Source: Nemertoderma westbladi | Taxonomy: Eukaryota; Animalia; Xenacoelomorpha | NCBI GenBank assembly: GCA_032718475.1 | Contig: JAUCBJ010000238.1 | Span: forward strand, 41,647-105,646 | DNA length: 64,000 nt | Direction: 5' to 3' | Shown: positions 38,348-62,642 of the stretch, in pieces | Position numbering within the stretch: position 1 is the stretch's first letter | Layout of the letters: every line of letters begins with the position of its first letter | Notes under the pieces: generated by a model | Seen by the model: only the letters and a program-made list of their open reading frames with translations | Databases searched by the model: none | Told to the model about the DNA's origin: nothing | Position numbers and translations under genes: made by a program

Positions 38348-39960
38348 AGAATTTGTTTCATATAATTTTTAATCGTTGCTGGCAAGATGGGTTTGGGGGG
38401 GTTAGCTAGTATTTTTTAAATAGCTAATTAAAATTAAAAAATTCACTGTATTGAGGTCATTATATTTAGATATTAATGATATACTTAGAATACGTAAACT
38501 GTATAATATTTATTATTTAGCAGACAGCGGGTAATATTTTCTGATCAAATCCAACAGAGCAAGGAATGGGTATTATTTGTGTAGAAGCTTCCAACGAAAC
38601 TCAGCTAGTTGTTGGGCAAAAGTAAAATCTTAGCTGTAGAAATTCGAATATTCTAGAAAATTAAATTTCATTGACATCAAATAAAACATAACTAACAAAA
38701 AATAAAATTTATAAGCTTTTTTTAAAATTTGTTCTAGAACAAAAAATGTTTGTTCTAGAACATTTTATTATTATTTTTTAAATGTATCTCATGTTCTAGA
38801 ACATTTCATAAAAAGAAATACCAAAAACTAGGTAGTAATAAAAATTGAGGGGTGTGTACCTGTAACACACTAGTATTAAATAATATAACGAATTCAAGAA
38901 TAATATTTTTACTAATAACCATGACCTTTGTTGCGTTAAACCTGGGCAGTAAGACATGGCAAACTTTTCAAATTATTAGTGGTTTCAACTAAAATTCAAG
39001 ATTCCTAAATCTCCAATTACATTTCAAATTCTAAATCAATAATATCTAAAGTGTTTCGTACAAGCGGTACGTTCTTATTCTGGAACATATTGTGGTCTCA
39101 TTATATGATAAATTTTTGTGGTAGTTAGTGGTTTTTATGGTAGCTGGTGTTTTTTTTCATTATAGCTATTATAAAAAATGTGACGGGATCCGAAAATCCC
39201 GATTTATCCTGGTTGTTTTGTTTACGCGTCCACGCCGTATGTAAAAGAGTTCGTTGTTGTTCACATATATGTATATAATATAATAGATGTACTGAGATAA
39301 TGAGATAACTGAATGTTGATGGTTTGTACGGTAGTATACTGCACAGATATAGAAAACCGGTAATGGTGGCGGCGACGGTAACAAAAGTCACCGTTCTGCC
39401 CTAACTGTACTGAGATAACTGAATCAATGAATAACACCAACCGGTAATATACTGCTCTGGTTTGGCCATATTACTCAGCAGATGCCTAATTCTCGTCCTC
39501 CCATCTCTCTGGGAGTGTTTTCCCCCCACTACTGTCATTCTCTCTCTCTCGGAGGTGTAACCTCTGACCCCCTTTGTGTGTGGCCCTTTGGGGGTTTTAT
39601 TTGGGTGATACGAGGTTGATTGGCAATCAACCTCGTGCTTCCCAATATTGCTTAAGGGTCTCGCTGGCCCAACTTTGTGGGGTGGTTAGCGGAATTGATT
39701 CGCTAACAAAAAATGTTTTTGAAATCACATAAAAATTTTAAATACTGCTGTGTTACCATGCATACAACGCAAATAACATTAATTTAAAAAAAAATACGAT
39801 TTTTTTTTATAAAAAAAAGTAGCTACTATATAAAAAGACTAGCTACCATAAAAAACACTAGCGATCACAAAAATTTAACGGGTAATGAGTCCAAAATATG
39901 TTTCAAAATATAAATCAACAACCAAAAACAGCCCCAAACAGCTATTAAAAAAGCGTAATA

Positions 39961-41672
39961 ATGGTAACACGGGATACACTAGTACCATCATTATTGGCAC
40001 TAGCCACCGCAGCGGACGAAGACGTGGACGAGGACCATGGCGCAGTGCAAGCAGCGCTTGACCGACTGCTGACTGAACGAACCATTAAATGGTTAGAACA
40101 GGACTCAGCAGAACCCGGTAGTTACGAGACCGCTATGTCAGAACAGGAAAAACGGTCATTAAATATTATGAGAGATACCATTCGCCAGACCGCGAATGGC
40201 CACTACGAGGTTGGCATGTTGTGGCGCCATGGACAACCTAAGCTCGTTAACAACTACCCGCTTGCTTTGAGGCGACTCAAATCAATAAGGCAGCGATTGT
40301 TGCGAGACGAGACGGCCCATATGCAATACAATGCACAACTTCAGACGTATCTCCAAAAGGGATACGCCATTAGGATGTTAAATCCCGAGGTAACCACAGA
40401 TCAGACATATTACCTGCCACATCATTTTGTTCGACACCCGGACAAACCTGGCAAGGTGCGTGTAGTCAACGACTGCGCTGCGCTTTACCAAGGGATGTCT
40501 ATGAACAGCGAACTGATGGACGGGCCGAATATGAATAATTACCTCATGGGAGTCCTAATGCATTTTAGACAACGCAAAGTGGCTTTCACCTGTGACGTAG
40601 AGGCCATGTTTCACCAGGTTAAGGCTTTGGAGCGGAACAGGGACAGTTTGAGGTTTCTTTGGTATCCGGACGGAAATTTAGAACTTCCGCCAGAAACTTA
40701 CCAAATGCAGGTAAGAATTTTCGGAGCCAGGGACAGCCCCAACTGCACCATGTACGCCTTAAAGCAGACAGCATTAGACAGACAAGACCAATTTGACCCA
40801 GAAGTAGTTCGGACAGTGGAACGAGACTTCTACGTGGATGACGGCCTCAAGAGTTGTGACACTCTGGAGCGCGCTATGACCGTAGCACCCCAACTCCAGG
40901 ATTGTCTCGCTGAGGGCGGATTCCACCTTACGAAGTTCGCTTCCAACAAACCCGAACTAGTGAACTCATTCGACCTGACAGATCGCAGTGGAGGAGACTT
41001 AGACTTAGACCTAGAACCTCTACCTACGACCAAAGTATTAGGACTTAGTTGGGACCCTAACACCGACAATTTTAGGGTACGTGTAAGGTCCAACGACCAG
41101 ACTAGACCTCTCACTAAGAGGACTTGCTTATCGACCATGAGACGATTTATGACCCATTGTGTTTCATTAGTCCAGTGATCCTACATGCTAGGATCATACT
41201 CCGCAGCATTTGGCAAGCCGGACTGGAATGGGACGATCCCATCCCAGAAAAGTTAGCTGAGCAATGGAGGGACTGGGAAGCCCAACTGACGTTCCTACAA
41301 GACTATACCATACCAAGGGTATACTTTCCTTTGCAGACCACCTTTCCTGCCGATTTAGAGCTTCATAGCTTCAGTGACGCTAGTAAGGATGGACTGGGGG
41401 TTACTTTATACCTTAGACGACAAGTGATATCGGACAGCTACGAAGTGTCTCTCGTTACTTCAAGGGCTAGAACAATGCCGTTGAAGTATATGACTGTACC
41501 TCGTGGAGAGCTCCAAGCCGGGACGATATCCACCGATATTGTCAGTTTAGTTCAACGCGAGCTGGATGCTAACTTGAAGGTCACATATTGGACGGATGCG
41601 ACGTTGGTACTTTGGTACATAAACAACGAAACATTTAAGTTCAAGACTTTCGTAGCCAACAGACGGGCTGAA
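39961..41672 (+). pseudogene. BEL/Pao retrotransposon pol, RT and RNase H part (frameshift near 41140; gag/protease not seen upstream)
   Basis: YYLPHH...KPGKVRVVNDCAA, DVEAMFHQV, FYVDD, KVLGLSWD, then IYDPLCFISP, FSDASKDG, TVPRGELQA, WTDATLVL and FVANR. Confidence 0.96.
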
Positions 41673-44600
41673 TTTTTTCTCAGTTTCCAAGTTTTCTCTG
41701 CAATAGCTGTATTTTTACCGAACTTCCCTTTCATGATACAATTTTAGAATCAGAAACCGACGATTCATTTCTCACATCGCCTCTGCAAACTCCAAGTGAT
41801 GCTGAGAGTGAAACTTTTAATTTTTTTAAGAAAAAAGGTCTGCATTTTTTGCACTTAAACGCACGATCTCTGCTTCCAAAACTTTCCGAAATTCGTATTT
41901 TAATCAATAAATGCAACCCAGCAGTTTTAACAATCTCTGAAACTTGGCTCGATGATAGTGTTTCTGATGGAGAAATTTATATTGATAATTACGTAGTTTT
42001 ACGTAAGGATAGGGACAGACACGGTGGTGGTGTCTGTACTTACATTCGATGTGATTTAGCTTTTAATCGTAGGGAAGATTTAGAGACTTGTGACGAAGTT
42101 TTACTGGTGGAACTCTTACTTCCTAAAACTAAACCTATTTTAATCGGTACTTTATATCGGCCCCCTAAACAATCAGATTTTTTGCAAAATTTTGAAAATA
42201 CAATTTTATGTAATCTTAGGTCAGACTGTGAAATATATTTCTTAGGTGATTTTAATATCTGTTACCATCACAAAGCATCCCCCATCTGTAAACAGTACCA
42301 AAGTATTTTAAATTTGTTTGGTTTAAAACAAATTATTCGAGATTCTACCAGAATTACCAGTAAAACTTCTACTTTACTAGATCACATCCTTTGTAATAAT
42401 ACCGATATTATTTCTCAATCTGGGGTTTTACCTATAGGTCTAAGCGATCATTTTATAGTTTTTTGCACAAGAAAGACACAAAAATCTTTTTTCGGGGATC
42501 ATAAAACAGTAACAGTTAGGTCTATGAAAAATTACAGCAAGGAACGCTTTTTAAGTTTGTTAGTTAATTCTGACTGGGAACCCTGTTTTAAGGCCGCTGA
42601 CATTAACCATGCGTACACTGTTTTTAAAGATATATTTTTAAAGGCACTTAATACTGTAGCACCAATTAAAGAAATTAGTCTTAAACAACGCACTGAGCCC
42701 TGGATGACCTCGGGTATTCTTAGTAATATCAGAGAAAGAGATAACTATTTGTATAAATTTAGGAAATACCGTGTTTTAGCTGATTATAATAATTACTGCA
42801 AATATAGAAACCTTGTCCAACGGGAAATAAAAAAAGCGAAATCTGAATATTTGTACAACAAAATAAGTGAGAATAAAGATAATCCTAAAAGTCTATGGTC
42901 TACCCTAAAATCTTTAGGTTATAAAAACCTTAAATCTAAATCGAATATTGTTCTGCAAGATAACGGTGAGCTGATTCATGATCATACTCTAGTTAGTAAT
43001 TTATTTAATAATTATTTTACTAATGTTGCCTCTAATTTAGTTAAGAAATTACCGTTATCAAGTAATAAATATAGTATAGGGTCCGAAACTCTAAATAATT
43101 TTTATTTAGAAAAGTTACAAAATTCAGAAAAGTTATTTTTAAAACCCGTTTCTGAGGATTTCGTTTTTAAAAATCTACTTAGCCTATCAGCCTCAAAAAG
43201 TACCGGTCTAGATCTAATACCTGCCCGTTTTCTTAAGGATGGTGCTGAAGTACTTAAAGTGCCTATTACTTTTATTATTAATTACTCTATCGTAGATAAT
43301 GTAGTACCAGACGAACTGAAATTAGCTAAGGTTGTTCCTCTGTATAAAAAGAATAGTAAAGTAGAACCCTGTAATTACAGACCTGTTAGTATCTTAAGTA
43401 TTGTATCTAAAATTCTAGAACGTTCTGTTTTTCTACAGCTGGAGGCACATCTTAGTAGGCTAAATCTGATCTATGAACTTCAGTCCGGTTTTCGTAAATC
43501 ATATTCTACAGACACCTGCCTTATTAACTTAACTGATACAATTAGATGTAATAACGCAAAGGGTTTATATACTGGTATGGTAATGTTGGACCTACAAAAG
43601 GCTTTCGATACTGTAGATCACGAAATTCTGCTTGGTAAGTTAGGCCTGATGGGTGTAGGTTCTATAGACTTGTTCAAGTCCTACCTGTCAGACAGAGGTC
43701 AAACTGTAGTCATTAGCAAATCGCTGTCTACTGTACAAGAGATTACCTGTGGTGTACCGCAAGGTAGTATATTAGGTCCTCTGCTTTTTGTATGCTATGT
43801 AAATGATATGATAAGTAGTATAGATCCCGATTTTAAACTCATTTTATATGCCGACGACAGTGCTCTTATTTTCTCTCATAAAGATCCTATCCATATTTCC
43901 CAAAAGTTAAGTGCAGTTCTAGAATCCTGTAATGAGTGGTTGGTTGATAATAAGCTATCCATTCACTACGGTAAGACTGAAAGTATTTTGTTTGGTTCCA
44001 AAAGAAAGTTAAAGAAGGTAACTAAGTTTGAAGTCACTAGTAATGGACATAAGATTGAAAATAAAAAGGAAGTTAAATATTTAGGCGCCACATTGGATAA
44101 CTGCTTATCAGGAGAAAGTACAGTGAAAAATATTTTCTCGAAAGTTAACAGTAGGCTTAGGTTTCTATACAGAAATAAAAATAGTTTGAACACCGACTCC
44201 CGCAAGTTACTTTGCTCTCCTTTAATACAGTGTCACATGGACTATGCGTGCTCTTCTTGGTATGAAGGCTTAACCAAACAGCTTAAATGTAAATTACAAG
44301 TAGCTCAGAATAAATTAGTACGATTTATTAAAGACTACAAACCTAGGCACCACCTAACTCCAGATGACTTTTCTGAATCTGGACTACTTAACTTAGATAG
44401 TAGAGTTAAGCAGCTACGCCTTAACCATGTGCATAAAGTGTATAATGGTAAATGTCCCAATTACCTAAAACAAAAATTCAACAGAGTACGCGATACACAC
44501 TCTTATAGTACCAGAGCTAGTGCTTCAAACTTCTACCTCCCGAATTGTAAATCCTTTGAATCTGATACTTTCTTTTTTAACGGCATAAAAAATTGGAACG

Positions 44601-45052
44601 CTCTGCCTAATGAAATTAAAAACCTAAATAATCAACATTCTTTTAAATCTGCAGTTAAATCTCATCTCCGTGTGCAATGTAAAAATAGGTACAATAGTCC
44701 TACAGTAAGTTATTAGTTTATTAATTATTTACTATTTATACTGTAATTACGTTTTATAATAAATTGTTCTGTACATTACATCTTTATCGTTGAGTCGGGC
44801 ATTGTCACGCTCTCGGTAAAGTTGTACATGTACATAGTGTAATTACGTTTTATATTGGTTTTAGGTTAGCGTAGTGTAATATTGTATTTGTAACCAAGTA
44901 ACATAAAGGACCCCCTTGGAAATAAGCTGCAAAGCTTTAGGGGTAATCCTATATGTTATGTTGGACAATACCTTTATACCGGTACATTGTTTGGTGTATT
45001 TGTTATTGTTTTTACATAATGTATAAATAAATCTATCTATCTATCTATCTAT
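41673..45052 (+). mobile_element. 5'-truncated CR1/L2-group (Crack-like) LINE inserted in Pao pol
   Basis: TSD CTGAA (41668-41672, 45053-45057). AATAAA is followed by an (ATCT)n tail. The 3'UTR has a stem-loop around GGAAATAAG at about 44905-44950. Confidence 0.95.
41849..44716 (+). CDS. LINE ORF2: APE endonuclease plus reverse transcriptase, uninterrupted; the frame is open back to the insertion junction
   Basis: HLNARSL, ISETWL, YRPP, GDFN, LDHIL, SDH; NYRPVSIL, QSGFR, LDLQKAFDTV, GVPQGSILGP, YADD, YLG. The in-frame upstream FLCNSCIFTELPF looks like the end of a PHD finger. Confidence 0.96.
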   Translation: MHLNARSLLPKLSEIRILINKCNPAVLTISETWLDDSVSDGEIYIDNYVVLRKDRDRHGGGVCTYIRCDLAFNRREDLETCDEVLLVELLLPKTKPILIGTLYRPPKQSDFLQNFENTILCNLRSDCEIYFLGDFNICYHHKASPICKQYQSILNLFGLKQIIRDSTRITSKTSTLLDHILCNNTDIISQSGVLPIGLSDHFIVFCTRKTQKSFFGDHKTVTVRSMKNYSKERFLSLLVNSDWEPCFKAADINHAYTVFKDIFLKALNTVAPIKEISLKQRTEPWMTSGILSNIRERDNYLYKFRKYRVLADYNNYCKYRNLVQREIKKAKSEYLYNKISENKDNPKSLWSTLKSLGYKNLKSKSNIVLQDNGELIHDHTLVSNLFNNYFTNVASNLVKKLPLSSNKYSIGSETLNNFYLEKLQNSEKLFLKPVSEDFVFKNLLSLSASKSTGLDLIPARFLKDGAEVLKVPITFIINYSIVDNVVPDELKLAKVVPLYKKNSKVEPCNYRPVSILSIVSKILERSVFLQLEAHLSRLNLIYELQSGFRKSYSTDTCLINLTDTIRCNNAKGLYTGMVMLDLQKAFDTVDHEILLGKLGLMGVGSIDLFKSYLSDRGQTVVISKSLSTVQEITCGVPQGSILGPLLFVCYVNDMISSIDPDFKLILYADDSALIFSHKDPIHISQKLSAVLESCNEWLVDNKLSIHYGKTESILFGSKRKLKKVTKFEVTSNGHKIENKKEVKYLGATLDNCLSGESTVKNIFSKVNSRLRFLYRNKNSLNTDSRKLLCSPLIQCHMDYACSSWYEGLTKQLKCKLQVAQNKLVRFIKDYKPRHHLTPDDFSESGLLNLDSRVKQLRLNHVHKVYNGKCPNYLKQKFNRVRDTHSYSTRASASNFYLPNCKSFESDTFFFNGIKNWNALPNEIKNLNNQHSFKSAVKSHLRVQCKNRYNSPTVSY

Positions 45053-47655
45053 CTGAAATATTGGACCGGTCGCTCAAACAAGATTGGCATCGCTGTCCAG
45101 GGAAGCTGAACCCAGCTGACATCGCGTCACGGGGGATGCTGCCGATCGACTTTTGTAAACCGGACAATAAATCCTTTTGGTTTAGAGGACCCGATTTCCT
45201 ACAGCGACCTCCAGACGAATGGCCACCGTTATTCGACACGACAACCAATACCATACCAGAGGGTGTCGAGATAAAAATCGACACAGTTGTCAAATCTAAA
45301 GCGAAAGCCAACGCCAAGGTCAAGAGGAAACGAGGACGGACGAAATCTGATGACCTGGACGCTAGACCTGACATTACGCCAGACGTCTCACCAGAATCTC
45401 GACCAGACGCTTGTATGAATCTTTCACCGGATGTTCCGCAGGAGATTTCACCAGACGTTTCGCCGGATTGTTCACCAGATGACTCGCCAGATTATTCACC
45501 AGAAGCGACACCAGATTGTTCTCTGGATTGTTCGCCAGATTGTTTTATGGAACTCTCGACAGATTGTCTACCGGAAGTTTCACCAGACTTTCCACCAGAC
45601 ATCTCGACAGACTGTCCACCAGACTTTAGACCAGACTTTCTGACAGAAGCTACGCCAGACTTTCTTTGGGACCGACGACAGGACATTTCGCCGGAAGTTC
45701 CGCGCTATGTCTCACCAGACATCTCACCAGACTGTTCGCCGGACGCTTCACCAGACTGTCTACTAGACTCTCCATTAGAAGACCCATTGGAGCGGACTAG
45801 TACACACTCACTAGGTATTAACAACTTACCGAATTTGACTTCTTTGGACAACGAAGGTGTGGCCACAGCGATCACACTCCGCTCAAGGAAAATACTTGAC
45901 TTACCACCTACAGGTAAACGTGTAACTAAGGTTAGGAAGCTTACAAGCTCACAGGAACACACTAGGACTGTAGAGTTGAAACCGTTACTGCCAGTCAATT
46001 CACTAGGTGCGGACGGTAGAGGTAAGACCGTGGAGATTGACATACTTGGGGACTCAGACAAACCTACCGGAAGGCCCGTGGGCCTACCAAGTCCAAACAA
46101 GCATCCACATTATGACTATACCTTACCTGATGACGTCACTAACACTTACGTTGACAGGATAGTAAACCTAACTAAATCATGGACTGACGCGTGCCGCAAG
46201 TTAGCATGGCTTAAACGTTTGAGACAATATGCCAGAGGCAAACGCGACTTTCCTAGAAGACTTACCTTAGAGGAAGTTGGTCATTGTGAAGTTGATATCA
46301 TTCGCCATTATCAATTGCGATATTTCGCACGAGAATTCACAGCGATCAATCAAGGTAAACAGATCAAGTCTTCACCGATTTTGAGTTGGAGTCCGATTTT
46401 TTACAGGGGCTTACTTTGTCACAAGTCCAGACACCAGAACATTGACTTTGCACTTGACTTTAGGTATCCTATCATCATACCGCAACACCATGAGTTACAG
46501 CGCGCTATGATACTGGACGCACATGTACAACTCAAACACGTGGGTAGACATCACTACCTATCACACTTACGATCGAGGTTTGTACTGATTAGGCCTAGCA
46601 AGGCACTGAGTTCTGTAACACGGAACTGTATGATTTGTAAGAAGGTGCACGCGAGGATAGGACACCAAGAAATGAGTGAACTACCACTAGCGAGATTACA
46701 GGCGTTTAGACCCCCTTTCACTGAGACAGGGATAGACTGTTTTGGACCTATAATCGCGAAACGCGGAAGGGTACAGGTAAAACGTTGGGGATTAATCTTC
46801 ACTTGCATGGCCAGCAGAGCTGTCCATATAGAGCGTGTGACAGACTTGACTACCAATGCCTTTATCCTAGCCTTACGGCGATTTATCGCTAGACGTGGAT
46901 TGGTCAAATCCATTTATTGTGACCAAGGGACAAACTTTGTGGGTGCACGGAATGAGATAACTAGAGCTTTAAGGAAGTTGGACCAAGACCAGTTTTCCGA
47001 GGAACTACGTCCTCACCGTATTGTTTGGAACTTTAACACTCCAGACAGTCTGTGGAGAGGCGGCGTTTGGGAAAGGCTGATTGGCTCAATTAAGACAGCA
47101 ATGGCTAAAGTAATACCGACGCAACACATTTTAACAGACGACCAACTGACGACGTTGTTAATAGAAATCGAAGCGATTTTGAACACTCGACCGATCGCTT
47201 TGATCCCAGACAATAACGACGCACAGTTTGCCTTGACACCAGCGCACCTGCTTATGCAGGCGCCGACGACATTGTTGGCCACTTCGGTACCTGTTGATAG
47301 CGACGGATACGGCAACAAGGCTTGGAAAATCACTCAGCTGATAGCCAACAAATTCTGGGAAATATGGCAGAAGCATTATTTGCCCTCTATTTCGACCAGA
47401 ACCTCTTGGTATCTTAATACCCGATGTTTAAGACGTGGTGACCATGTTTTATTGGCTGAAGCTAATCTGAAAAGACGGTTTTGGCTGACTGGAGTCATTT
47501 TGACCACGCACCCTACATCTGGTGTAGTAAGGACAGTTACTGTACGGACTATCGACGGACGTACCGTAGATAGGCCTGTACAACGTCTCGTGCTCCTTGA
47601 GGAGACTAGAAACGAGACAGGAGACTACAAATCTCCACCCAACCTTAGTAAATAG
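45053..47655 (+). pseudogene. BEL/Pao pol C-terminal part: end of RNase H, low-complexity insert, integrase
   Basis: NPADIASRG; zinc-binding HVQLKHVG...CMICKK; GIDCFGP, YCDQGTNF, GGVWERLI, LNTRPI, LTPAHLL, VDRPVQRL. It joins in frame to VANRRAE when the LINE is removed. Confidence 0.96.
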
Positions 47656-48189
47656 AGATGTCGGACCCTTGATGGCCGCCACATAGATTTACCGTATTTT
47701 AGTAATTTAGTATTTTGTATTACTGTATGTGCATTTGTATTCCTCTTCACTGTAGATAGAGACAGCGGTGGAATTCCATTGTCTTTATATGTGAACATGG
47801 AGGGTAGTACCCTTATGTATCACATAGGAGCGGGATTGTGTGTACAGTAGGAATGGAATTCCACTTGGAACCCACAAGTGAGACAATTTTCAAAAATTAT
47901 TAGACAAATCCATTTGGTTGGATTTAAATTTAAGAAAAATGATTCTCCAGTGAATGCGAATTCTAGAATACAGCTAGATAAAAATTAAAATTGGGGAGGA
48001 CAAGAGCGGATGGAAGGCTTGCGAGCCTACCGATAAATTTTTTTTTGGAAAAGAAAATCGGCCTTGTTCTACGTAGTCGTGTCTACTATTATTTAGACCA
48101 AATTAATTCTCGACTGCACTATTTTCTTTGGGAAGTAGTTTGGGAAATTAAAAGGTGAATATTTTAGACTCGCGGCTAGTTTACCCGGA

Positions 48190-50469
48190 ATGCGTTTTTT
48201 ATCGGCACATATTTTGGATTAGGAGCCAGTGCGAAATCACGCGAAACCCGAAGTCATTAGGCAAATGGGTAGGGGTTTTAGAGCAAAGTTGAGCCAAAAG
48301 CCGACTAAACTCTAAGTCTCCTCACATCTAACCTCTGTTTGTGCTTCCTCTAGTAGAAACACTACATATACAGGGATTCACGCAGGAATAGGAGCACCAG
48401 GCGCCGTTCAACCGATATGGGGCCAAAACTTTAACGTGTTTGTAGTGGAGAGTAGGGCTAGGAGTACAGCCAAGCTCGCTAAATCCAAGGCGGATCCAAA
48501 CGTTACGCGACAGCGATTGGACGCTTATAACAAAAGAGCGGAGGAGTTACACGCGGAGTTCAAAGCGTTGTACCCCTACGATGCGTTATGCGACGCCAGC
48601 GACGTTTGCGAGGACCCGAGACACAGAGATATGATCTTTATAGACGCGCTCGAGGAGCGGATCCGGAAACTAAGGAAGCGTTCTCCATTTATAAACTGTT
48701 CTATAAATGCAGTGCCGGATTAAGCCTCTGGTGGCCCTAAGGCACATTTTAGTAATTTCCAAAAATGGCCCGAAAATTGATATTTTTTCGCAAACCCTTT
48801 CAAAAGAAAAAGCTGCTAAAAACAACTGAAATTGTGAAAATGTTGCGAAGGAAATATAAAGTATTTTCGTTGGATGACTGCGTGTAAATAAGTACTAAGT
48901 ACTATTTTGTGATAGACAAAGTGTAGCAGTTACGAAATCGGTTCTAGAAGATCCAAATGGCCATGTTTTACAAACCAATATTCACGATTGTAGCCGTAAA
49001 GATGCTAAACATTTTGTATATGTTTAATGGAAATTGAGTAAAAAATAAAAAGTAGTAGGGAATTTAGTGATGAGTCAAAAGTCAAAATCAAAGTCAAAAG
49101 TCAAAATCGACAAACTGATAAAAATGTTGTTTTATACAGAGAGGAATAAATATAAGCAATAATTATTCTGTTGTTGAAAAGTGCAGTTTTGAGGTCAAAA
49201 AATAATTCAATGTTGAAAACCGATATCACCTTTTATGAAAGCCCTTCTATCAAACCACAAAAAATTGTGTAAATTTTCAAAAATTTCATTTCTGTAGGGG
49301 TTATAGTGAGCCCCCTTAAAGCTGACTGGTCCCTGTAGGTATTTAGCAATTTTGATCGGATCTTGGAAATGTGTTATTTATTTGCTGTAGGTTTCGCAGG
49401 GTACTTATCTATACTGGACTTGCTGAGAAATATAACACACCAAAAGTGTGCGGCTTAGTGCAAAGATATAATATTTCTGATCTATATTTGGACTTGCTGA
49501 GAAAGTAATGTTCTTCGATAAGAGAAGTAAATAAATAAATGGAAATAAAAGGAAATAAATACTTTTTGTCACTAATTTTAATTTACCCAAACTCAATTGT
49601 GCTGTCCGAGAGTTTTAGGTTTTGCAGGAATTGCACCTAAAATGCCATCGAATGCAAAATTCAATACACGAGGGCATAACATCTGAATTTCGGTTAAATT
49701 AAATTACAGTAGTGACAAGAAGTTATTTCTGATACGTTTTTTTTTATCTACAACAAATTTATCCTTTTTTTTTTTATCTATTAGAGCCTATATTAATAAA
49801 ACTCGTTTCCGGTGAAAAAAATTAATTTCGCACTACCATCTTCGGGCCGTACATTAACGGCCTTTAGTTACGATGTACAGTATTTCCAGTATGCAGGCAT
49901 GGCAAAACGTCAATATTTAGTTGTTCTAGAAAGTTTTAAGTACGTAACTACAAATAATTCCCCACAAGTAAATAAAATTAAATTCTCCATTGTTCATAAT
50001 TAGCACTTTAATGTTTTATTATTTCCCTGCCATCAGGTCAGGTCATGAACTAATAACACAAGCAGCTGTCGGTCGATTGAGCTACAATTTTGCAATTTCT
50101 ACCACAAATCTAGTGATAGGAAGTAGTCGAAAGATGCACTTTTGTTCTGTTTTCTAGAAATTTTAGTGAGAAAAAATTTGGACTTTTCAGATAAAAATAA
50201 TTTTTTTCACAGGAATGACTCGCTGAGAAAAAATGGCCCGTATTTTCGTCTGGCCCTAAGGCACGTGCCTTATATGCCTTAAGGTTAATCCGGTACTGTA
50301 TAAATGTGGAGGATGTATGCGTGAGCAAGACAACGCGATTCCTATGCGCTTGAACCCGGAGAACCCCGAGCCGATATTAGCGCGTTGCCCAAACCACCAA
50401 AGTCTGCGTTACCAAGAAGGCGGTCGTTTCATTTTCCGGTATTCTAGAACCGCAGGCAACTCGACGTAG
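48190..50469 (+). pseudogene. Decayed accessory ORF downstream of Pao pol with a CxxC...CxxH motif, split by a hAT insertion
   Basis: One frame runs from ATG 48190 with stops at 48220 and 48313 and a frameshift near 48585. Joining 48588-48709 to 50307-50469 gives an open 94-aa frame. Confidence 0.6.
48710..50298. mobile_element. Non-autonomous hAT-like DNA transposon
   Basis: TIRs CAGTGCCGGATTAA and TTAATCCGGTACTG, 8-bp TSD TATAAATG (48702-48709, 50299-50306), and subterminal GGCCCTAAGGCAC at both ends. Confidence 0.93.
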
Positions 50470-51149
50470 GAGCCCTAGCTCAGCTAGACCGAAGTCACCG
50501 ATTAATCGTATAAAAGGGCGAAGGCGTAGAGAGCGAGATGATGGAGAAAGGAAGGCTTGCGAGCCTACCGTTAGCGATCAGCGCTCAGGAGACAATATCC
50601 AGACCAGTAGGACGAACTATTGAGCTCGTCAGGAGTACACTTTAAGACTTATTTGGAAGATATTAGCGTATTATGTTTATTTTATATTTGAACTGATTTA
50701 ATTTGGTGAATTTATTATGTATATTTGCAATATATGAAGATTATTGAAAGTTTGAAATTATTTGTTTTGATTTGTTTAATTTGCTTATCTTGATAACCGA
50801 AAGCTCTTTTTTTTGTATTTTATGCACTAAAGTTAATTGGTAAATTTGTATTTTGTATGTATGATAGATTGTATTTAAGCCGTACCCGCAATATTAAGTA
50901 TGCAATAAATAGATAGTGTTTATTTTATATTTTAGGCCCCACTATTAGACTTAAGAAATATTTGTAAATAGTTTATATTTCGATTGGTGAAAACAGTCTT
51001 ACTTACTGTTTTCATGGAGCGGTGATGGATTATTTCACTATAAGATAGCATTTGTAGTTTAACGTAAAAACTTTCTAAAATCCGACGCATTTTGATTAAA
51101 TTACAGTAATGTAATATGCCTATTCATATTGGTACACATAAAACCCATA

Positions 51150-51245
51150 GGTAATCTCATGGCGTAGTGGTCAGATGGTTAAGGCGTTGGTTACATTACA
51201 GATAGGTTACGAGTTCGAATCCCAATCGGGAAATTTGCATTTTGG
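51150..51245 (+). ncRNA. tRNA-derived Pol III cassette (SINE head or tRNA pseudogene)
   Basis: A-box-like TGGCGTAGTGG (51160), B-box GAGTTCGAATCCC (51211) and a T-run at 51240. No clean cloverleaf could be folded. Confidence 0.6.
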
Positions 51246-51314
51246 GGCAATTTATTTTCATTTGATTTAATTTGTTAAACCAATGAGGTGCGTACAACAC
51301 ATGGAACGATGAGT

Positions 51315-51679
51315 TGGGCCAATCATAGGGCATGGAACATCTTATTGCTCCAATGTGAGGCCATGGAATGCTCTGGAAGGTTCTAGCGGATTCTATGTCC
51401 CAGATTTAGTATAAAAAGGGCTGGTTAGCCTTCGGTTATCATTCACTTATCTTGCTCACTAATGTTAACTCTTGTTAACTTAGTATTTGTTTCTTTTGTT
51501 ATAAATCTTTAATCTGTTTGATAAATCTTTGTAAACTGTAAATATACTGTAAACTTCTGAACATGTATATTTCCAATTGTCCACCTTTGGGACAGCCAAG
51601 CATTGGGAGGATGGCTGCCTAGACCGTTAGGCCGTCAGCAACGCAGGGAAAGATGTCCACAACACGCTAAGCTCCCACA
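51315..51679 (+). promoter_or_regulatory. LTR-like promoter block (CCAAT, TATA, T-rich R/U5-like tract, ends CCCACA)
   Basis: CCAAT at about 51319 and 51350, GTATAAAAAGGG at about 51409, and CATTCACTT about 30 nt downstream. Confidence 0.45.
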
Positions 51680-53131
51680 TTAGATTTGCTCGCGCGCCCG
51701 TTCGAAGTATGCCCCCTTGCCATACAGCGCCCACGTCAGAGGAAGGTAAGACTTTGTTTGACGCCCTTGCCCGCAGTAAGACCTATAGATCAGGGTAAGC
51801 GTGACGCCGTCCTGGAGCGCCGTAAAATTTAGGATCGAATATTTTAGACTAAGACAGGAGCAAACAAGCAAAATCCTCGGATTAACCTGTATCTCCAACA
51901 GGTGTGAACTATTGCTGTTCGTCAGTACGCGCAAGTACACTTTAGGTGCAGACAGCACAATTCCATAATTTGGTGATTTGCAGTACTGACAGTTCTGTAC
52001 CGGTTCACTTTGTAGTTTATACATTTGCCCGCCCCTGTCTGAGCCCAAAATATTTGATCAGGCAAGGAGCAGCTTTCTGCTACCGGCACTTTGCTTGGCC
52101 TAGGGAGGTTACTAATATCCTACCGCGCCTTGCCACGTACTGATAGGTATTTGCTGCTAACCACCGCAGCAATAAAATTCTAGAATCAAATTGTATACCA
52201 GATCAGCTAACGTACGGTAGCAATTAACACCTATTTCTTATCTTACAACCAGAATCTGGTATTTGTGCCGATCACGGGTGTAGTTACCAACACCGTAATT
52301 GCCCGGTTGAGTTGTGGATAGGAAGGAGAGAGCTTTGACGCCATTTTGTAAGTATAAAGCCCTACAGAGCGCGACTAGCTTATTTTAGTAGCTAGCGCCC
52401 GGTATTGTTTTTGGTCAGAAATCACCGAAACCTAGTACAACGGCGATACACCAAAATTGTTTTATTCGTAACACAAACACACACACATGTCCTAAAACAT
52501 ATATACCCCCCTTCGAGACCTGCCAGCTATTAGTTTACTTTAGATTACTTTAGGCAGAATTTATCTGTAATTTACTATTCGTAGTTTGTAAATTTAGGAT
52601 CTGATATTTAGTTTTACGGCAAGTATTTTAGATGGCATGCACCCTTTTGACTGCATTGCTCCTGTCAGCAGTATTGTTACTTTAGGTACTACCCCCTTTT
52701 GACTGCTACCGCTTGTTAGTAGTATTGTTACGCTAGTCTGTTAATCCACTAGCTCGTATATAAACCATATAAATCACACCGCGGCAAGTTACGGTATTTA
52801 GGTCTGTCAGCGATAGTTAGGATTCGCTGCGCGGGGATTGTTTTCCCGTGAGTTTGGTCTGTCACTGTAACTGTACATCTGCCTCACCGGTTAGAGGACA
52901 GGTTTCCTTTTGTCTAGTTCGTAGGCATTAGACCCGCTCACGTACGTAGAATAGACACTAGGCTCTGTTCCTCGCCAGTAGTTGTTCGCGTATTTGTATC
53001 TGTTTGTTTAGATACCCTGGACTGGGATTTGTTGTCAGATACTGTACGAGCCCGTATACACTACTGGATCTTACGGTAAGATACATCGTTACTAGGATCC
53101 GGTAGACGGCATACTACTGGACTTTTCACGT

Positions 53132-54354
53132 AGGGAAAAAATGAAAAAAACAAGTAACCAGCACTTTTCAGTTAGAACACAAAATTTTTAATTCACTTAT
53201 ACGATGCTATAAATTCACATTTTAAGGTTTTTTAGGGCGCTGATTCTAATGGAATACATTTCAAATATGCCAGATCATTGCTACGTGTATTTTTCGGCGT
53301 AATTTGGCAAATTTTGGTGCTAGCACCAAACTTCGTACCCATCACCAAAAAGTACAAGTTTGCGATGTCCAGTGCTGTTTTTATTGATTCCATCGGATTC
53401 AGGACCCTCATAAACCCGCATAATACAAGAAACAAGATGATACTATCTACTGATCAATTTACTCATTTTCCAAAATTTGGTGCTGGAGCAACAATTTTCA
53501 CCCACCGGCGAAAAATACAAGTTTGAAAACTCTTATGAAATTTTTACTGATTCCATTGAATTCAGAACCCTAACAAACTCGTATAACGCAAGAAACAAGA
53601 TGACACAATCAATTGATATATTTGATGGTTTTCAAAATTTGGTTCTAGCACCACATTTTGCACCCACTTCCGAAAAATATAAGTTTGAGATGTCTAGTTC
53701 GATAATTATATATTCCATTGAATTCAGAACACCCATAAACCTCTAAAATGCAAGAAATAAATTGTCACAAGCAATTTTATCTATTGAATGGATTTTCAAA
53801 ATTTCGTGCTAGCACCAAAATTTGCACACAGCACCGAAAAATACAAGTTTGATACGCTTGGTGCAACTCGTATATATTTCATCGAAACCAGAACCCTAAA
53901 AAACCCCAATTGCGTAAAAAACAAGTTTCAAACAATCAATTTACAAAATTGACATATTTCAAAATTTGGTGCTGGCACCAAAATTTGGCAACCGCCGAAA
54001 AAAACAAGTTTGAAATTTCTAAATCAATTTATATGAATTCCATCCAATTGCTAACACCAAAAAACCGGTGTAAATCAAAAATAGAGATGTTACAATTAAT
54101 ATTTAATGAAATGTAATTTTCAAAAAACGTCTCAAAAAAAGTGCCAAAAGTAGGGTTAAAAAATGGTGCTATAACTCGAAAACTACCCAATATTTTTGAA
54201 AACGGTTTTCACTACTAGGAAGACAATAGATTTTTAGGAAAAGTCATAATATTTCAGATTCCCAAATGCGTTTGTTTCAGAATTATAATAAAAAAACCAC
54301 GGGGGGGGGGGGGGGGTCATATTGACCCCCCCCCCCCGGGTTTAATATGGTTAA
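53132..54354. mobile_element. AT-rich DNA-transposon fragment with a piggyBac-like right end, carrying about five diverged 162-bp tandem units
   Basis: CAAAATTTGGTGCTAGCACC-like anchors at about 53308, 53471, 53633, 53797 and 53960. It ends GnTCATATTGACn...TATGG-TTAA. The left terminus was not found. Confidence 0.6.
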
Positions 54355-55057
54355 TTAATAGATCATGGGAGCGGAGATTCACCCTATTAAGTATATCAGT
54401 GTGAGAGAATCTCCAGTGTATAGTCAATAGCCGATAAAATTCATAAAATCATGTATAAGGGGAATATTGACAATTAAAAGTCACTATTAAATAGCATCCC
54501 AGATCTGTATGCATGAGAAATACCCTAATTCTACCGCTAGCTTTGCATAATGTCACCATAGTAACAACCACGCTAGAATTAGAAGTGAGTTAAAAGAACA
54601 ATAGAAAGCTTGGTGCCCCATTGAATAGGATGCGGAATAAATAGCACCTTGCTAGTATCTAGGGATACATAATAATAACGTGGCATTCTGGAAGGCATTT
54701 GACTAACGGACAAATGGCCCTAATTTGTACAAATTGTGGCAGGAATGTGGAATTTGTGTATTTATAGGTGAATGTTACTACTAAAGTGTGTTTACAGTAG
54801 CGAGTCGCAGTTGTGAAAATTACCCTGCATCTGTAGCAAGTACATCCAGTATACTCAAGCCCTTGGGACGGACAGTGGAGTGACTCATGCTGGTTATTGT
54901 TGTCGCTGTGTAGCTACTACGTTGACGAGAGGCACAGCGACGACAGTACATCAGCGCTGAGGATCTCAGGGCTGTCCGGGGGCATAGAGGGGAAGGCAGC
55001 GACGCCCACTAGCCTTATTATTATTCACTATAATATCGATAAACTCATGTAGCAGCT

Positions 55058-57064
55058 ATGACTGAGTTGATAGAAGATGATCTTGGTATCAGGGAGCGAT
55101 TTACCCTACCACTGCAAGTGTTTGTTGATAGTTTGATAAGCGGCGACGCAAGTCAACACACGACGGAAGACAATGGCCATTACATCGAACTGAAAATGTC
55201 AAAGGAACAGCTCAAGCGTGAATTGGACTATAGAAAATTCACCGCTCGCTATACGCATCGTAATGGTACGTATATGGACTTGTTAACTACTGGTCATCCT
55301 ATCGATTTACACGATGCGGACGATGTAGACACCGAAAGGGAAATGATTCTATTTAAATATCATGCCCAGCAAAGTCGGAATGATAAACTGAGGATTGAAC
55401 ATGAAAATTCTATTAGAAACCGACTCGGAAGAGAAGATGTTGAAGAACCGGAAAAACGTAGTGACTTCAACGAATATTTAGAATTCTTGAGAGAAACTTA
55501 TCTCAATGTAGCTAGTCAACAAAATCTAGAAACTCGATATCCTCAAGGTATACATCATAACCCTATGATAGAACTCAAACGACTCTATTTTACTATGATG
55601 TATCTTACCGCCGATCGACCGCTACCTGTTGTACCGGATAGCTTCGAACAGATGGAGGAATATTGTAAAACTGGAGAAAGATCACCAGCGTTTCCCTTAC
55701 AAGACGTGCGTCTTTGGTATTACTGCGATGAATGCCCTAGACCCAATCAACAAACGGAAAGACATAAACATCCGCGGAGACGTTGCGCTAAACACAGTTT
55801 TACTCGCTATACTTATGGGAGTTTTGAGCGAAACTTGTTCGACATATCACCTACACTCGCTCAACTCAAACGATCCTTAAATAAACCAATGACCAGAGTT
55901 CCGGAATACTCGGTCAGACCTCCTCATTCCCTGGTGCGACCTCAGACTCTTGATCCTAATAGTATGACGGATCCTCCTGAGTTGTACTCATTGTTCAAAG
56001 ATCTAGTGTTACCCGAACAATTAGTCGGTGGCACTCCAGTTGTGGGCTCTCTAGATATTCGCCCATCCTACCTAGCCGGATTGGGACGCGGACATCTAAT
56101 ATCTCCGTTCAACCCGTATAATCGTCCCAGTTTAACTCCGATACAACCTGTCACCGAGGTGGAGGACAGCGTTGTATTAAATGCGCTAGACGCTATTCGA
56201 CAAAAGATCGGAAAGGGAACCTACAGTTGTTTAGACAAACGTAAATTGCAACAACAAGTCCAAGCGGTAAAGGAATTAGCTTTACCCCAGTTCGATCGTG
56301 AAATCCAGAATCTTGTGGAAGATATCGAACTTGGACGAACTTACTCTCTACAAGAGTTCTTGGATGAACGCTTTCAAAGACAAGCAGAGGAGAATCAGCT
56401 CGAGGAGAAGCATATCGAAATGGATGATAGAGAAGAAGCAGCTTTAGACCAATTGGAAGCTCAAATCCTTATGACTGATCTCTATTCCAAAACCATCATT
56501 CATCCTTCGATGGTTCCCCATTTCGGAGATAAACTCTTCGCTACAGCACAACCCCAACCGGTTGATATCAACTTAAGATCTAGAGATCTTATCGCTGACG
56601 CTCCTATGTTACAACGTCCGCCAATCGAGACTGCTCGTGTCGACGCTATACTCGTTGAACCTCCGGACAATCGAGCGGATCTTATCCGTCGTATGGTACA
56701 CAAGGTCAACCTACGCGCTAGACCTTTACCGAACTCATTTTACGGGATCAAAGATCACCCTTATTATGTCCATTTAACTCAATATTATATGGTGAAACTG
56801 GAAGATCCTACACACAGTTTTAAGTTTCTACCATTGATAAATCCCCTCGATCTTGTTGAACTCGAGCAACTACAGAAACATTTAGATCAATTGGTTAAAG
56901 TAAACTCATTCAGAAAACCTTATAATGTTTCAAGAATAGAAAAGGACATAATACCTCCGTATAATCTCGATGGATTCATTAAAACTCGATTAGTCCATTG
57001 GAATTTATATGTATTGTTTGAGAAAGAAAGAATACGGCGACTTGTTCATAAACTCGCATCCTGA
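55058..57064 (+). CDS. 668-aa orphan ORF, probably retroelement-associated, with a CxxC-x16-CxxH motif and an acidic coiled-coil-like region
   Basis: A long intronless ATG ORF containing RLWYYCDECPR...RRCAKHSFTRYTYG. It has no signal peptide or TM segment. It probably extended further through a frameshift near 57025 and a TGA at 57240. Confidence 0.7.
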   Translation: MTELIEDDLGIRERFTLPLQVFVDSLISGDASQHTTEDNGHYIELKMSKEQLKRELDYRKFTARYTHRNGTYMDLLTTGHPIDLHDADDVDTEREMILFKYHAQQSRNDKLRIEHENSIRNRLGREDVEEPEKRSDFNEYLEFLRETYLNVASQQNLETRYPQGIHHNPMIELKRLYFTMMYLTADRPLPVVPDSFEQMEEYCKTGERSPAFPLQDVRLWYYCDECPRPNQQTERHKHPRRRCAKHSFTRYTYGSFERNLFDISPTLAQLKRSLNKPMTRVPEYSVRPPHSLVRPQTLDPNSMTDPPELYSLFKDLVLPEQLVGGTPVVGSLDIRPSYLAGLGRGHLISPFNPYNRPSLTPIQPVTEVEDSVVLNALDAIRQKIGKGTYSCLDKRKLQQQVQAVKELALPQFDREIQNLVEDIELGRTYSLQEFLDERFQRQAEENQLEEKHIEMDDREEAALDQLEAQILMTDLYSKTIIHPSMVPHFGDKLFATAQPQPVDINLRSRDLIADAPMLQRPPIETARVDAILVEPPDNRADLIRRMVHKVNLRARPLPNSFYGIKDHPYYVHLTQYYMVKLEDPTHSFKFLPLINPLDLVELEQLQKHLDQLVKVNSFRKPYNVSRIEKDIIPPYNLDGFIKTRLVHWNLYVLFEKERIRRLVHKLAS

Positions 57065-58962: not shown

Positions 58963-60120
58963 TGTGTGTTTGTATAGGGCACTCCCTTATTGGACGGCAG
59001 TAGATTACAGCGAAGCTAGCTGTGAGCGGATTCAATTCCGTGCATTACCCATCCAAAATGGGACTAATGGTATTTTACCAATATAATTGGCTACTACTAC
59101 TAGGATCGGCATGCTGCATTGCAGCTGCATTTTTAAGAATGCTGTGCCGGCTTGTCAACAAAATTGCACCGCCACAACTCCCTATCACCCATGACATTTG
59201 CTAGATCATCCGCATCTTTAAGGCCAGTGTCCTTTAAGATGCGTCTCAAGAAAGTCATGGGCTGTCCACCATGCTTATTCACTCCATGAGGCTGCCAAAG
59301 TACAAGATTATGCACTGGCTGGTCCTCACGGCGAAAGCAATGTCCTGCAAAGCGGAGGCGATTTTGTTCTAGTGTCAAGCTTGGGGGAACCAATGAGACA
59401 CCTCCAATGTTATATAGTGTCTGGTTGGAGATGTGTGCATTGTACTTGACACAATGTACCCGGCGTAGCATTCTTGTGAATATAATTGGCGATGTGAGAT
59501 TACCAATAATAATCTCACCTCATAACCAACTGGGGGGGGGGGGGGGGGGAGTGATACACGCCATAAGCCACAGAGAGAGGTGAGAGGTCAAACCACCTCA
59601 GAGGGAGAAACCAGCTAGTGAGGCTAGCACCACGGGGTAACACCAACAGGGAGTGGCGAAGTGACAATTAGTATATTAGCCAATAGCGGGCAGGAAAGCA
59701 CATTGGGGAGGACAAGAGCGCATCCATTGGGTATTAAAGGCCCCCCAGTAGTGTAGGGCTAACACCAATATGTGTCAATGATATAACTCTTGTAATCACT
59801 GATTATTAGTTAGTTGAGTAAGTTGATTCCCTTACGGTTGTGAGACTGGAATAGTTTTTGACCGTCTTCGTTATTAGATCGTTACTACATCATTGTTACT
59901 GTTACTGTGCATTGCATAATATTCAATGCATATATGAATTACATTCAGACTGTGCTATTATCAACTGCTGTGATTATCAACACTGATAATTTAACTCTTT
60001 GTTTTCAACGGCCTTCGGCCTAACGTATCCAGCAGTCAGCCAGCAGCTTACGAACGCGACGACGCGTACAATCTACACCGGTCGGGAGCTGATACTGCCA
60101 ACTCCGTCAGTCCCGTCACA
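58963..60120 (+). mobile_element. Candidate 3' LTR (TGTG...CACA) preceded by a polypurine tract
   Basis: AGGAAGGAGGTGGGGGGG-CT-TGTGTG at 58943-58968, TATA-like GTATTAAAGG at about 59730, end CCCGTCACA. No partner LTR is present in the window. Confidence 0.4.
59092..59478 (-). mobile_element. 5'-truncated RTE-like LINE with (TAG)n tail and 12-bp TSD
   Basis: TSD AATATAATTGGC at 59080-59091 and 59479-59490. The sequence is nearly identical to 21291-21686. Confidence 0.95.
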
Positions 60121-61970: not shown

Positions 61971-62642
61971 ATGGGTCACACTGCCAGCCAGGTTGGACCG
62001 GTATCATACAGTATAATGTTCCTCATCTTTCTCGTTTCATTACACTTGACCCTCGTCTGCGGCTTTACATGTCCATGGGGTCAAAATTGGACCATGTCCT
62101 CTGAAAACGGAGATCTTCAGAAATATATCGAAGGTTTGGCGACAATATATTCTGAGAGTAATGAGCTCTTTAAAGTCTCTCAAATTCAAACCAATTGTCA
62201 TGTTTGTCGAACCATCGAATTCAGAACGAGGGGATACTCGTCAGAGTACGATGCCGAAATCTCTGTAGAATACGTAGAGTGGCGGTGCGAACCTGAAGGC
62301 AACTGTGTACCTCTCATAGAGGACGCTTGCCAGTATATGTGGACCGTTGTACTCCCAGAGGCTAATGTGAGGGAAGAAGATCGACAATTGTATGGAAGAA
62401 TGTCCATTGTGAAAGCAATGCAAACCGACCTTACAGATATAGTTGACGAGTGTCAACTCGACTGCTGTGATGGGCCTTGCCCTCGCGCACAATGGAAAAG
62501 TGACGACATAACTACCACGGTAGAGACAACGGAGGTTTACACTTCCTCTACAATAACGGATAGCGGAACAGATGACGTCACAGCAATGTCGACCCTCGTG
62601 ACTGTGGTGTTTCTATTCGTAACATTTTTGGGACGAATGTAG
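61971..62642 (+). CDS. Secreted, probably GPI-anchored Cys-rich protein, Ly6/uPAR (three-finger)-like
   Basis: Signal peptide MFLIFLVSLHLTLVCG (likely start at the second Met). Ten Cys in the mature part ending in CCDGPC, a Thr/Ser stalk and a C-terminal hydrophobic tail. An upstream acceptor TTTTATACAG lies at about 61918 and AATAAA at 62696 and 62744. Confidence 0.75.
   Translation: MGHTASQVGPVSYSIMFLIFLVSLHLTLVCGFTCPWGQNWTMSSENGDLQKYIEGLATIYSESNELFKVSQIQTNCHVCRTIEFRTRGYSSEYDAEISVEYVEWRCEPEGNCVPLIEDACQYMWTVVLPEANVREEDRQLYGRMSIVKAMQTDLTDIVDECQLDCCDGPCPRAQWKSDDITTTVETTEVYTSSTITDSGTDDVTAMSTLVTVVFLFVTFLGRM

What the first reader, a model, noticed from the sequence alone, without database searches (positions are those of the whole stretch)
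48190..57064. Hidden accessory zinc-finger gene family downstream of BEL/Pao pol: two ORFs share a novel-looking CxxC...CxxH motif
Seen: deleting the hAT element and one TSD joins 48588-48709 to 50307-50469 into MRRQRRLRGPETQRYDLYRRARGADPETKEAFSIYKLFYKCGGCMREQDNAIPMRLNPENPEPILARCPNHQSLRYQEGGRFIFRYSRTAGNST*, which is invisible in the ORF track. The 668-aa ORF at 55058 contains AFPLQDVRLWYYCDECPRPNQQTERHKHPRRRCAKHSFTRYTYG. The shared pattern is AF..L[FW]YxCxxCxR-x(13-17)-RCxxHxxxRYxxG. Both ORFs are sense to pol, lie in the env position and lack signal or TM segments. Established: extra 3' ORFs in BEL/Pao elements are typically env-like. Inference: an undescribed non-env accessory family (nucleic-acid binding, trans-activator or anti-silencing), either duplicated within one giant element or carried by two related nested elements.
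Basis: partly seen in the sequence, partly recalled or inferred. Interest (0 to 1): 0.85.

Follow-up and report, generated by a model that had tools for sequence, protein, structure and literature searches.

The report
Orphan zinc-finger gene in Pao retrotransposon
A BEL/Pao jumping gene in an animal genome carries, where its relatives have an envelope gene or nothing, a small and now broken extra gene whose copies differ mostly at silent positions and which likely encodes a zinc-binding regulator of the element's own RNA; a larger gene nearby, also without known relatives, likely shares its cysteine-histidine motif.

Summary
Mostly confirmed, with corrections. A 1589-bp insert with an 8-bp target duplication splits ORF A, and contigs from two studies show the uninterrupted site. 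ORF A is a real gene: 19 of 29 listed differences between copies are silent, against 27% expected. A strong splice-acceptor-like signal precedes it. ORF B (668 codons) is intact. The shared CxxC-x16/23-CxxH motif exceeds chance in anchored tests (p about 1e-3 or lower) but is only borderline in plain alignment (p about 0.005-0.03 in six of seven schemes). ORF B and the ORF A pieces that were searched have no significant hit, and neither ORF has a membrane segment, so they are not Env-like; 90 related BEL loci lack both. Whether ORF B belongs to the same element is unproven. Function is inferred: most likely a spliced, Rev/CERV-like regulator. The scan had not noted this on other DNA.

The parts
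39949..41660 (+). BEL/Pao pol, RT and RNase H region, in two frames; no gag or 5' LTR upstream in the window
   Evidence: Pfam Peptidase_A17 E=2.4e-37; translations
41672..45045 (+). LINE insertion (endonuclease plus RT ORF 41672-44716) splitting pol
   Evidence: Pfam RVT_1 and Exo_endo_phos; simple-repeat tail
45046..47655 (+). BEL/Pao pol, integrase region
   Evidence: Pfam DUF5641 E=9.8e-19, Integrase_H2C2; best database relatives 32-42% identical
48012..48035 (+). 24-bp sequence repeated after ORF A (50550-50573); possible cis-element, untested
   Evidence: 96% identical pair; score 44 against a shuffle maximum of 34
48325..48356 (+). Splice-acceptor-like signal (branch-point-like site, pyrimidine tract, tandem AG) ahead of ORF A; splicing inferred
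   Evidence: Best branch-bearing site of 366 YAG sites in 47656-59500; no RNA data
48392..48709 (+). ORF A, 5' part; frame breaks in this copy near 48428 and within 48614-48635
   Evidence: 19 of 29 differences silent when each segment is read in its own frame
48702..48709 (.). Left copy of the 8-bp target-site duplication
48710..50298 (.). Non-autonomous hAT-like DNA transposon inserted in ORF A
   Evidence: Terminal inverted repeats and 8-bp duplication; uninterrupted site in other copies
50299..50469 (+). Right copy of the duplication and ORF A 3' part with C-x2-C-x23-C-x2-H (Cys codons at 50305, 50314, 50386; His at 50395), stop at 50467-50469
53135..54353 (.). Insert with 163-bp tandem repeats, ending in G/C runs and TTAA; no matching left end, so a possible deletion junction between the ORF A and ORF B regions
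55058..57064 (+). ORF B, 668 aa, intact, no known relatives; C223-x2-C226-x16-C243-x2-H246 motif at about 55715-55830
59532..60119 (+). G-run (polypurine-tract-like) followed by an LTR-like stretch that shares 22 bp with 47990-48011; which element it closes is not settled
   Evidence: no partner LTR in the window

Best explanation
ORF A is an accessory gene of a divergent BEL/Pao retrotransposon whose copies differ mostly at silent positions, likely made from a spliced RNA, and its small soluble product likely uses a CxxC...CxxH zinc site with flanking Arg and aromatic residues to bind the element's own RNA and would help the unspliced genomic RNA leave the nucleus, as Rev or nematode CERV do. 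Shown: BEL/Pao pol; the position of ORF A 0.7 kb after pol; its breaks in this copy; silent-site excess among copies; no membrane segment; no known relatives. Inferred: splicing (from the acceptor-like signal), zinc binding (from the Cys/His spacing), RNA binding and export (from analogy: an element with a strong internal acceptor must still export unspliced RNA). ORF B is likely a distant relative that keeps only this domain inside a much larger protein and is likely carried by a second, more widely copied repeat unit nested behind the first. I put about 0.85 on ORF A being a selected accessory gene, 0.75 on common descent of the motif, and 0.4 on the RNA-regulator mechanism.
For: Selection: 6 of 6, 10 of 19 and 3 of 4 differences silent in the three ORF A segments, 19 of 29 overall against 26.6% expected, binomial p=1.3e-5, about 4e-4 after allowing for 27 frame choices; the upstream 240 bp shows no such frame (at most 4 of 11) and holds all 11 listed indels. 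The minus-strand frames that share third positions carry stops in the two longer segments. Acceptor-like signal ranks first among branch-bearing sites; extra ORF3s of LTR elements are typically expressed from spliced messages (PMC5408684, passages). Motif: 7 of 24 flank positions identical with the four ligands held fixed; 65 to 142 of 200,000 random draws reach that identity and 8 to 28 reach the score; 0 of 17 background motifs from 626 kb of related loci come near. CERV is a spliced accessory protein of an LTR retrotransposon whose cysteine loop and one Arg are needed for export of unspliced RNA (PMC10309623, passages).
Against: No RNA run holds the region, so expression and splicing were not observed. 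Plain local alignment of A (X at the break) with B is only borderline: 9-67 of 2000 shuffles reach the score in six schemes and 302-378 in BLOSUM80; with X at the Cys codon it was 824 of 3000. The anchored test was designed after seeing the motif. ORF B shows no silent excess in the 14 differences listed (5 silent; these are mostly private to this copy), and many ORF B contigs skip stretches whose lengths are not multiples of three. AlphaFold2 did not fold either region (pLDDT 36 and 46). ORF A pieces are only mildly basic. No sequence likeness to CERV or Rev was found.
Confidence: 0.4

Rival explanations
1. Same anatomy, but the zinc domain binds DNA or chromatin: the proteins are trans-activators or anti-silencing factors that recognise a short site in the element, such as the 24-bp repeat flanking ORF A or the 22-bp sequence shared with the LTR-like stretch.
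For: Short exact repeats at 48012/50550 and 47990/59702; C2CH-type zinc sites occur in DNA binders such as THAP (recalled); nuclear accessory ORFs are described in plant Grande and fly MDG1-group elements (PMC7264820; bioRxiv 2025.03.14.642691 section 7).
Against: No Pfam DNA-binding family matched; the spacer is shorter than THAP's (recalled 35-53); the repeats are only two-copy.
Confidence: 0.22
2. ORF A is a real Pao accessory gene but ORF B belongs to an unrelated repeat that happens to sit in the same nest; the shared motif is convergence of two Cys/His metal sites.
For: Borderline plain alignment; no likeness outside about 60 residues and none between the DNA flanks of the two ORFs; an insert with a missing left end lies between them; a single element would exceed 13 kb net of inserts without gag, against 4.2-10 kb for the family (arithmetic from coordinates; PMC8742986).
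Against: Anchored tests; the only two such motifs in 54 kb lie 5.4 kb apart on the same strand as pol.
Confidence: 0.2
3. ORF B is the main gene of a separate pol-less or unclassified mobile element, and ORF A is a piece of it that the Pao lineage captured; the domain serves packaging or competition for the Pao machinery.
For: Single contigs inside ORF B reach depth 5167-13278 where long low-depth contigs show about 20-60; the deepest listed joints are 257-700 in pol and 1362 in ORF A (a hint only, contig depth cannot rank genes); depth falls after about 57850; many internally skipped forms.
Against: No terminal repeats or target duplication could be placed around the ORF B unit; no gag knuckle or capsid family in ORF B; the runs were found with ORF B as the query.
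Confidence: 0.13
4. ORF A derives from a captured piece of a host p53-family DNA-binding domain (the loop that carries one Cys and one His zinc ligand).
For: Best PDB sequence hit of the ORF A 3' piece is entry 7pc6 'DNA-binding domain' over 26 residues; that the entry is p53-family is recalled.
Against: E=0.13, next to unrelated hits at E=0.19-0.8; Pfam gives nothing; the ORF B motif region has 0 hits at E<=10; in p53 the second Cys pair follows this loop, here it precedes it (recalled).
Confidence: 0.05

Closest known systems
BEL/Pao (Belpaoviridae) elements with a third, env-like gene: Roo, mosquito chuvirus-glycoprotein elements, Atlas virus (PMC8742986 whole text; PMC13524379 passages; PMC9094657 search listing)
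   Same: Extra sense gene between pol and the 3' end of a BEL/Pao element.
   Different: ORF A and ORF B have no hydrophobic segment, few cysteines (5 in 668 for B) and no match to any fusogen; ORF A is about 150 codons.
CERV of C. elegans Cer1 (Gypsy/Ty3; PMC10309623, passages)
   Same: Accessory protein of an LTR retrotransposon, made by splicing, with a small cysteine cluster and an essential Arg.
   Different: Other superfamily; CERV is 517 aa with a proposed C4 site and shares its start with Gag; no sequence match; its function is shown, ours is inferred.
Non-env ORF3 genes of bdelloid rotifer LTR retrotransposons (GDSL, DEDDy, coiled-coil, TM; PMC5408684, passages)
   Same: Family-specific non-envelope gene after pol in an invertebrate LTR element, expected to be spliced.
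   Different: Those are Juno, Vesta and TelKA elements with enzyme or membrane ORFs; no zinc-finger ORF3 in the passages seen; no Pfam match here.
Plant additional ORFs between pol and 3' LTR (Grande, RIRE2, Retand; PMC7264820, parts 1-2 of 3) and sORF1 of the fly MDG1 group (bioRxiv 2025.03.14.642691, section 7)
   Same: Conserved accessory ORFs of unknown function, some shown to be nuclear.
   Different: Gypsy elements; plant ones often antisense; sORF1 lies upstream of gag with a predicted helix-turn-helix.

Membership tests
BEL/Pao (Belpaoviridae), host element of ORF A | pol with RT, Pao-type RNase H and downstream integrase | tested here: met
   Peptidase_A17, Integrase_H2C2, DUF5641 in that order; 1192 relatives at E<=1e-30 among 7988 scored
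BEL/Pao (Belpaoviridae), host element of ORF A | gag, paired LTRs, PBS and PPT | tested here: inconclusive
   No gag or LTR pair in the window; the copy is 5'-truncated; one PPT-like run at 59532
BEL/Pao (Belpaoviridae), as carrier of ORF B | ORF B inside the same LTR-bounded unit, total 4.2-10 kb | tested here: inconclusive
   No bounding LTR pair; a single unit would exceed 13 kb; possible deletion junction at 53135; no genome held
Env-like fusogen of BEL/Pao elements | Signal peptide and transmembrane anchor | tested here: not met
   No 19-residue window reaches 1.6; maximum 1.06 in B, 0.21 in three A pieces
Env-like fusogen of BEL/Pao elements | Homology to F, gB or GN-GC glycoproteins | tested here: not met
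   No Pfam, PDB or library hit
sORF2/FAST-like fusogen | 60-210 aa, one transmembrane segment, N-terminal myristoylation motif | tested here: not met
   No hydrophobic segment in the three longer ORF A pieces; criteria; true N-terminus unknown
CERV/Rev-like RNA export factor | Made from a spliced message | tested here: inconclusive
   Acceptor-like signal at 48325-48356; no RNA run listed
CERV/Rev-like RNA export factor | Sequence homology to CERV | tested here: not met
   No hits in Pfam, PDB or protein libraries; CERV itself was not aligned directly
CERV/Rev-like RNA export factor | Nuclear, binds genomic RNA, needed for its export | not testable with these tools
   Needs cells of the host
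THAP (C2CH) domain | C-x2-4-C-x35-53-C-x2-H with conserved Pro, Trp, Phe between the pairs (recalled) | tested here: not met
   Spacers 16 and 23; no Pfam THAP hit at E<=10
p53-family DNA-binding domain | Significant domain-wide homology | tested here: not met
   26 residues at E=0.13 for ORF A only
Zinc finger (any) | Four ligands converge on one zinc ion | tested here: inconclusive
   Spacing fits; models have pLDDT 36 and 46

The most novel reading that the evidence does not exclude
A lineage-restricted family of zinc-finger accessory proteins is shared between an autonomous BEL/Pao retrovirus-like element (small spliced ORF A) and a far more widely copied pol-less satellite element whose only large gene is ORF B. 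ORF A would be the first Rev-like or anti-silencing factor in Belpaoviridae, and ORF B would let the satellite hijack or compete for the same cis-sites.
Probability: 0.17. Interest if true: 0.78.

Novelty: new variant of a known kind. Interest (0 to 1): 0.5.

Why it matters
The ICTV profile gives BEL/Pao elements only gag, pol and sometimes env, and nine literature searches turned up no non-envelope accessory gene in this superfamily. A selected, probably spliced, cysteine-histidine accessory gene would make this lineage a 'complex' retroelement, like Cer1 with CERV, and gives a concrete protein to test for how such elements export unspliced RNA or escape silencing. It also shows that decayed accessory genes are invisible to ORF and homology searches but can be detected from silent-site patterns among copies. 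The weight is limited by having one species, two genes and no functional data.

Tried and rejected
Homology searches with no significant hit: ORF B by phmmer against 1.84 billion representatives, 0 at E<=0.001; word-indexed search, 0 of 7997 scored; motif region against shorter proteins, 0 of 5; viral and metagenome contigs, 0 of 3 and 0 of 52 pattern matches confirmed; Pfam, NCBIfam, PHROGs (best E 0.005 to coiled-coil or unknown families); PDB sequences; ESM Atlas first hits 0.77 and 0.80 for ORF B, and 0.92 for the ORF A 3' piece to small unannotated proteins with low shared-feature counts, a lead only. Structure prediction was uninformative, so no fold search was run. No RNA holder listed; this is no evidence on expression. 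No genome is held, so copies could not be mapped. BEL loci in viral contigs: none. Of 90 related BEL loci, 37 have at least 1 kb and 13 at least 3 kb of 3' flank; none matches ORF A or B (best blastp E=0.027, best profile E=0.35), two carry unrelated loose motifs. Long ORFs behind pol in those loci first looked like extra genes but are gag-pol restarts. Rfam: one match at E=0.04 far below threshold. No tRNA gene. An antisense reading of ORF A was rejected on stop codons. A resemblance by eye between the ORF A middle piece and ORF B residues 46-90 was rejected (325 of 800 shuffles or more). LTR boundaries could not be fixed.
Full report
Setting. The window is repeat-rich animal-like DNA; no whole genome is held. 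A BEL/Pao pol runs from 39949 to 47655: Peptidase_A17 E=2.4e-37, then Integrase_H2C2 and DUF5641. It is split by a LINE (41672-45045) and by a frame change near 41150, and no gag or 5' LTR precedes it, so this copy is dead. Its integrase region is only 32-42% identical to the best 120 database relatives listed, so this is a lineage without close sequenced kin, which limits every homology search below.

The insertion. 48710-50298 is 1589 bp with imperfect terminal inverted repeats and identical 8-bp flanks; the hAT label is from these recalled hallmarks. Contigs of runs X1 and X2, from two studies, leave the left flank at 48710 with 20 loose letters that match the window's right flank at 17 places. 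One further contig joint links 48609 to 50359 in X1, X2 and X4. The insertion therefore hit a pre-existing continuous sequence.

ORF A is a real gene, but not quite the one proposed. A 94-codon frame alone is weak (chance about 0.01 per frame start). Laying four runs on 48150-48745 listed 40 of 46 differences and 11 indels. All 11 indels and 11 differences lie upstream of 48392 and favour no frame (at most 4 of 11 silent). Loose ends at 48428 and 48614 mark where other copies depart from this one. The minus-strand frames that share third positions have stops in the two longer segments. Just upstream, 48325-48356 is the best branch-point-bearing acceptor-like site of 366 YAG sites in 47656-59500; splicing is inferred, as no RNA run is listed.

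ORF B. 55058-57064 is open for 668 codons (chance about 1e-18), has 5 Cys and no hydrophobic segment. It has no relative in 1.84 billion representatives, in the word-indexed library at similar or shorter length, in viral or metagenome contigs, in Pfam, NCBIfam, PHROGs or PDB or in the Atlas. It is a repeat: many contigs of four runs cover it, some single contigs at depth 5167-13278, and many skip internal stretches, several of lengths not divisible by three. The 14 differences listed in it show no silent excess (5 of 14), but they are the best-supported 40 of 2317 rows over 15 kb and mostly private to this copy; pol gives 2 of 9 in the same table, so this test has no power.

The shared motif. 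C-x2-C-x23-C-x2-H in A and C-x2-C-x16-C-x2-H in B are the only loose matches of this pattern in 54 kb of six-frame translation (0.52 expected). Plain local alignment of A (X at the break) to B gave 9-67 of 2000 shuffles at or above the score in six scoring schemes and 302-378 in BLOSUM80; an earlier run with X on the Cys codon gave 824 of 3000. With the four ligands fixed, 7 of 24 flank positions are identical, reached by 65-142 of 200,000 random draws, and the BLOSUM62 sum of 25 by 8-28; 17 background motifs from 626 kb of related loci reach at most 5 identities and a sum of -2. The anchored test is post hoc. I put common descent at about 0.75. The likeness is confined to about 60 residues. 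AlphaFold2 could not fold either region, so zinc binding is inferred from spacing only.

Linkage. ORF A starts about 0.7 kb after the pol stop on the same strand with no insert boundary seen between them. ORF B is 7.4 kb after pol, behind an insert (53135-54353) whose left end is missing, and no LTR pair brackets either gene. A single element reaching the PPT-like run at 59532 would exceed 13 kb net of inserts and without gag, against 4.2-10 kb in the ICTV profile. Contig depth is higher over ORF B than over pol and ORF A and falls after about 57850, a hint only, since contig depth cannot rank genes and the runs were found with ORF B. Two nested units fit better than one giant element, but this is not settled. 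Two short exact repeats, 48012/50550 and 47990/59702, are unexplained.

Relatives elsewhere. Only 37 have 1 kb or more of 3' flank. None matches ORF A or B. In 11 of the 12 loci where a long downstream ORF was measured it begins 481-1082 bases after the integrase match, and these ORFs are mostly gag-pol restarts (L059 not assigned), so typical relatives have little room for an extra gene.

Mechanism. An element with a strong internal acceptor must still export unspliced RNA. In C. elegans Cer1 this is done by CERV, a spliced accessory protein whose cysteine loop and one Arg are required (PMC10309623, passages). ORF A is small, soluble, probably spliced, and its motif keeps Arg and aromatic residues next to the ligands. 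I therefore favour a Rev/CERV-like RNA regulator (0.4) over a DNA-binding activator or anti-silencer (0.22), convergence with an unrelated ORF B (0.2), capture from a pol-less ORF B element (0.13) and a p53-derived fragment (0.05; E=0.13). All functional steps are inference.

What is known. ICTV profile, whole text (PMC8742986): gag, pol and sometimes env. Passages of PMC13524379, PMC3118150 and PMC2774666 name only env-like third genes for BEL/Pao. Non-env extra ORFs are known in other LTR groups: rotifer ORF3s (PMC5408684, passages), plant additional ORFs (PMC7264820, parts 1-2 of 3), fly sORF1 and sORF2 (bioRxiv 2025.03.14.642691, passages and section 7); PMC6431247 (passages) and PMC6338049 (one passage) added nothing on BEL/Pao. 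Nine searches found no non-env or zinc-finger accessory gene in BEL/Pao. Repbase and Dfam entries, subscription papers and supplementary files were not seen and may hold such ORFs. Earlier scan notes held nothing on this.

Verdict. A new variant of a known kind: a selected non-envelope accessory gene in a BEL/Pao element, with a probable distant relative nearby. Interest 0.5: real and apparently undescribed, but one species, two genes, uncertain linkage of ORF B and no function shown.

Noticed in passing
window 23963-25537 +: Intronless 524-codon ORF with a C-terminal rhodanese domain that reads like a Cdc25 phosphatase (label recalled); host gene or retrocopy amid repeats.
   Followed up: no
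window 1-9900: 31-bp satellite, 313 or more copies, 97-98% alike, with strong strand asymmetry.
   Followed up: no
window 57066-57460 +: A second ORF-like stretch directly after ORF B in another frame, with one in-frame stop and a basic C-terminal part; no Pfam hit for its first 58 codons.
   Followed up: partly
window 45380-45780 +: The region of pol ahead of integrase holds a low-complexity Ser/Pro/Asp repeat of about 130 residues.
   Followed up: no
window 51070-51900 +: LTR-like stretch by eye (TG...CA ends, TATA-like box) containing a tRNA-like A/B-box segment at about 51155-51230; ARAGORN calls no tRNA and no partner LTR was found.
   Followed up: partly
window 59552-60119 and 39200-39800: The LTR-like stretch after the G-run has weak likeness to sequence inside the inverted-repeat element upstream of pol (scores 34-36 against shuffle maxima 26-30).
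   Followed up: partly
L090:4234-4947 +: 238-aa ORF between a BEL integrase and the next gag, with a C-terminal motif like that of SGNH/GDSL esterases (recalled); no Pfam hit at E<=0.01. If inside the element it would be another non-env BEL extra gene.
   Followed up: partly
L036:8099-8767 + and L043:4085-6019 +: Unassigned ORFs of 223 aa (10 Cys) and 182 plus 452 aa downstream of BEL integrases; no Pfam hit.
   Followed up: partly
L080-L090: Eleven BEL/Pao loci sit in prokaryote genome records, mostly metagenome-assembled; likely host-animal contamination of bins.
   Followed up: no
window 32915-34087 - and 61956-62642 +: Two intronless ORFs (390 and 228 codons) without Pfam hits; the second is Cys-rich with hydrophobic ends.
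   Followed up: no
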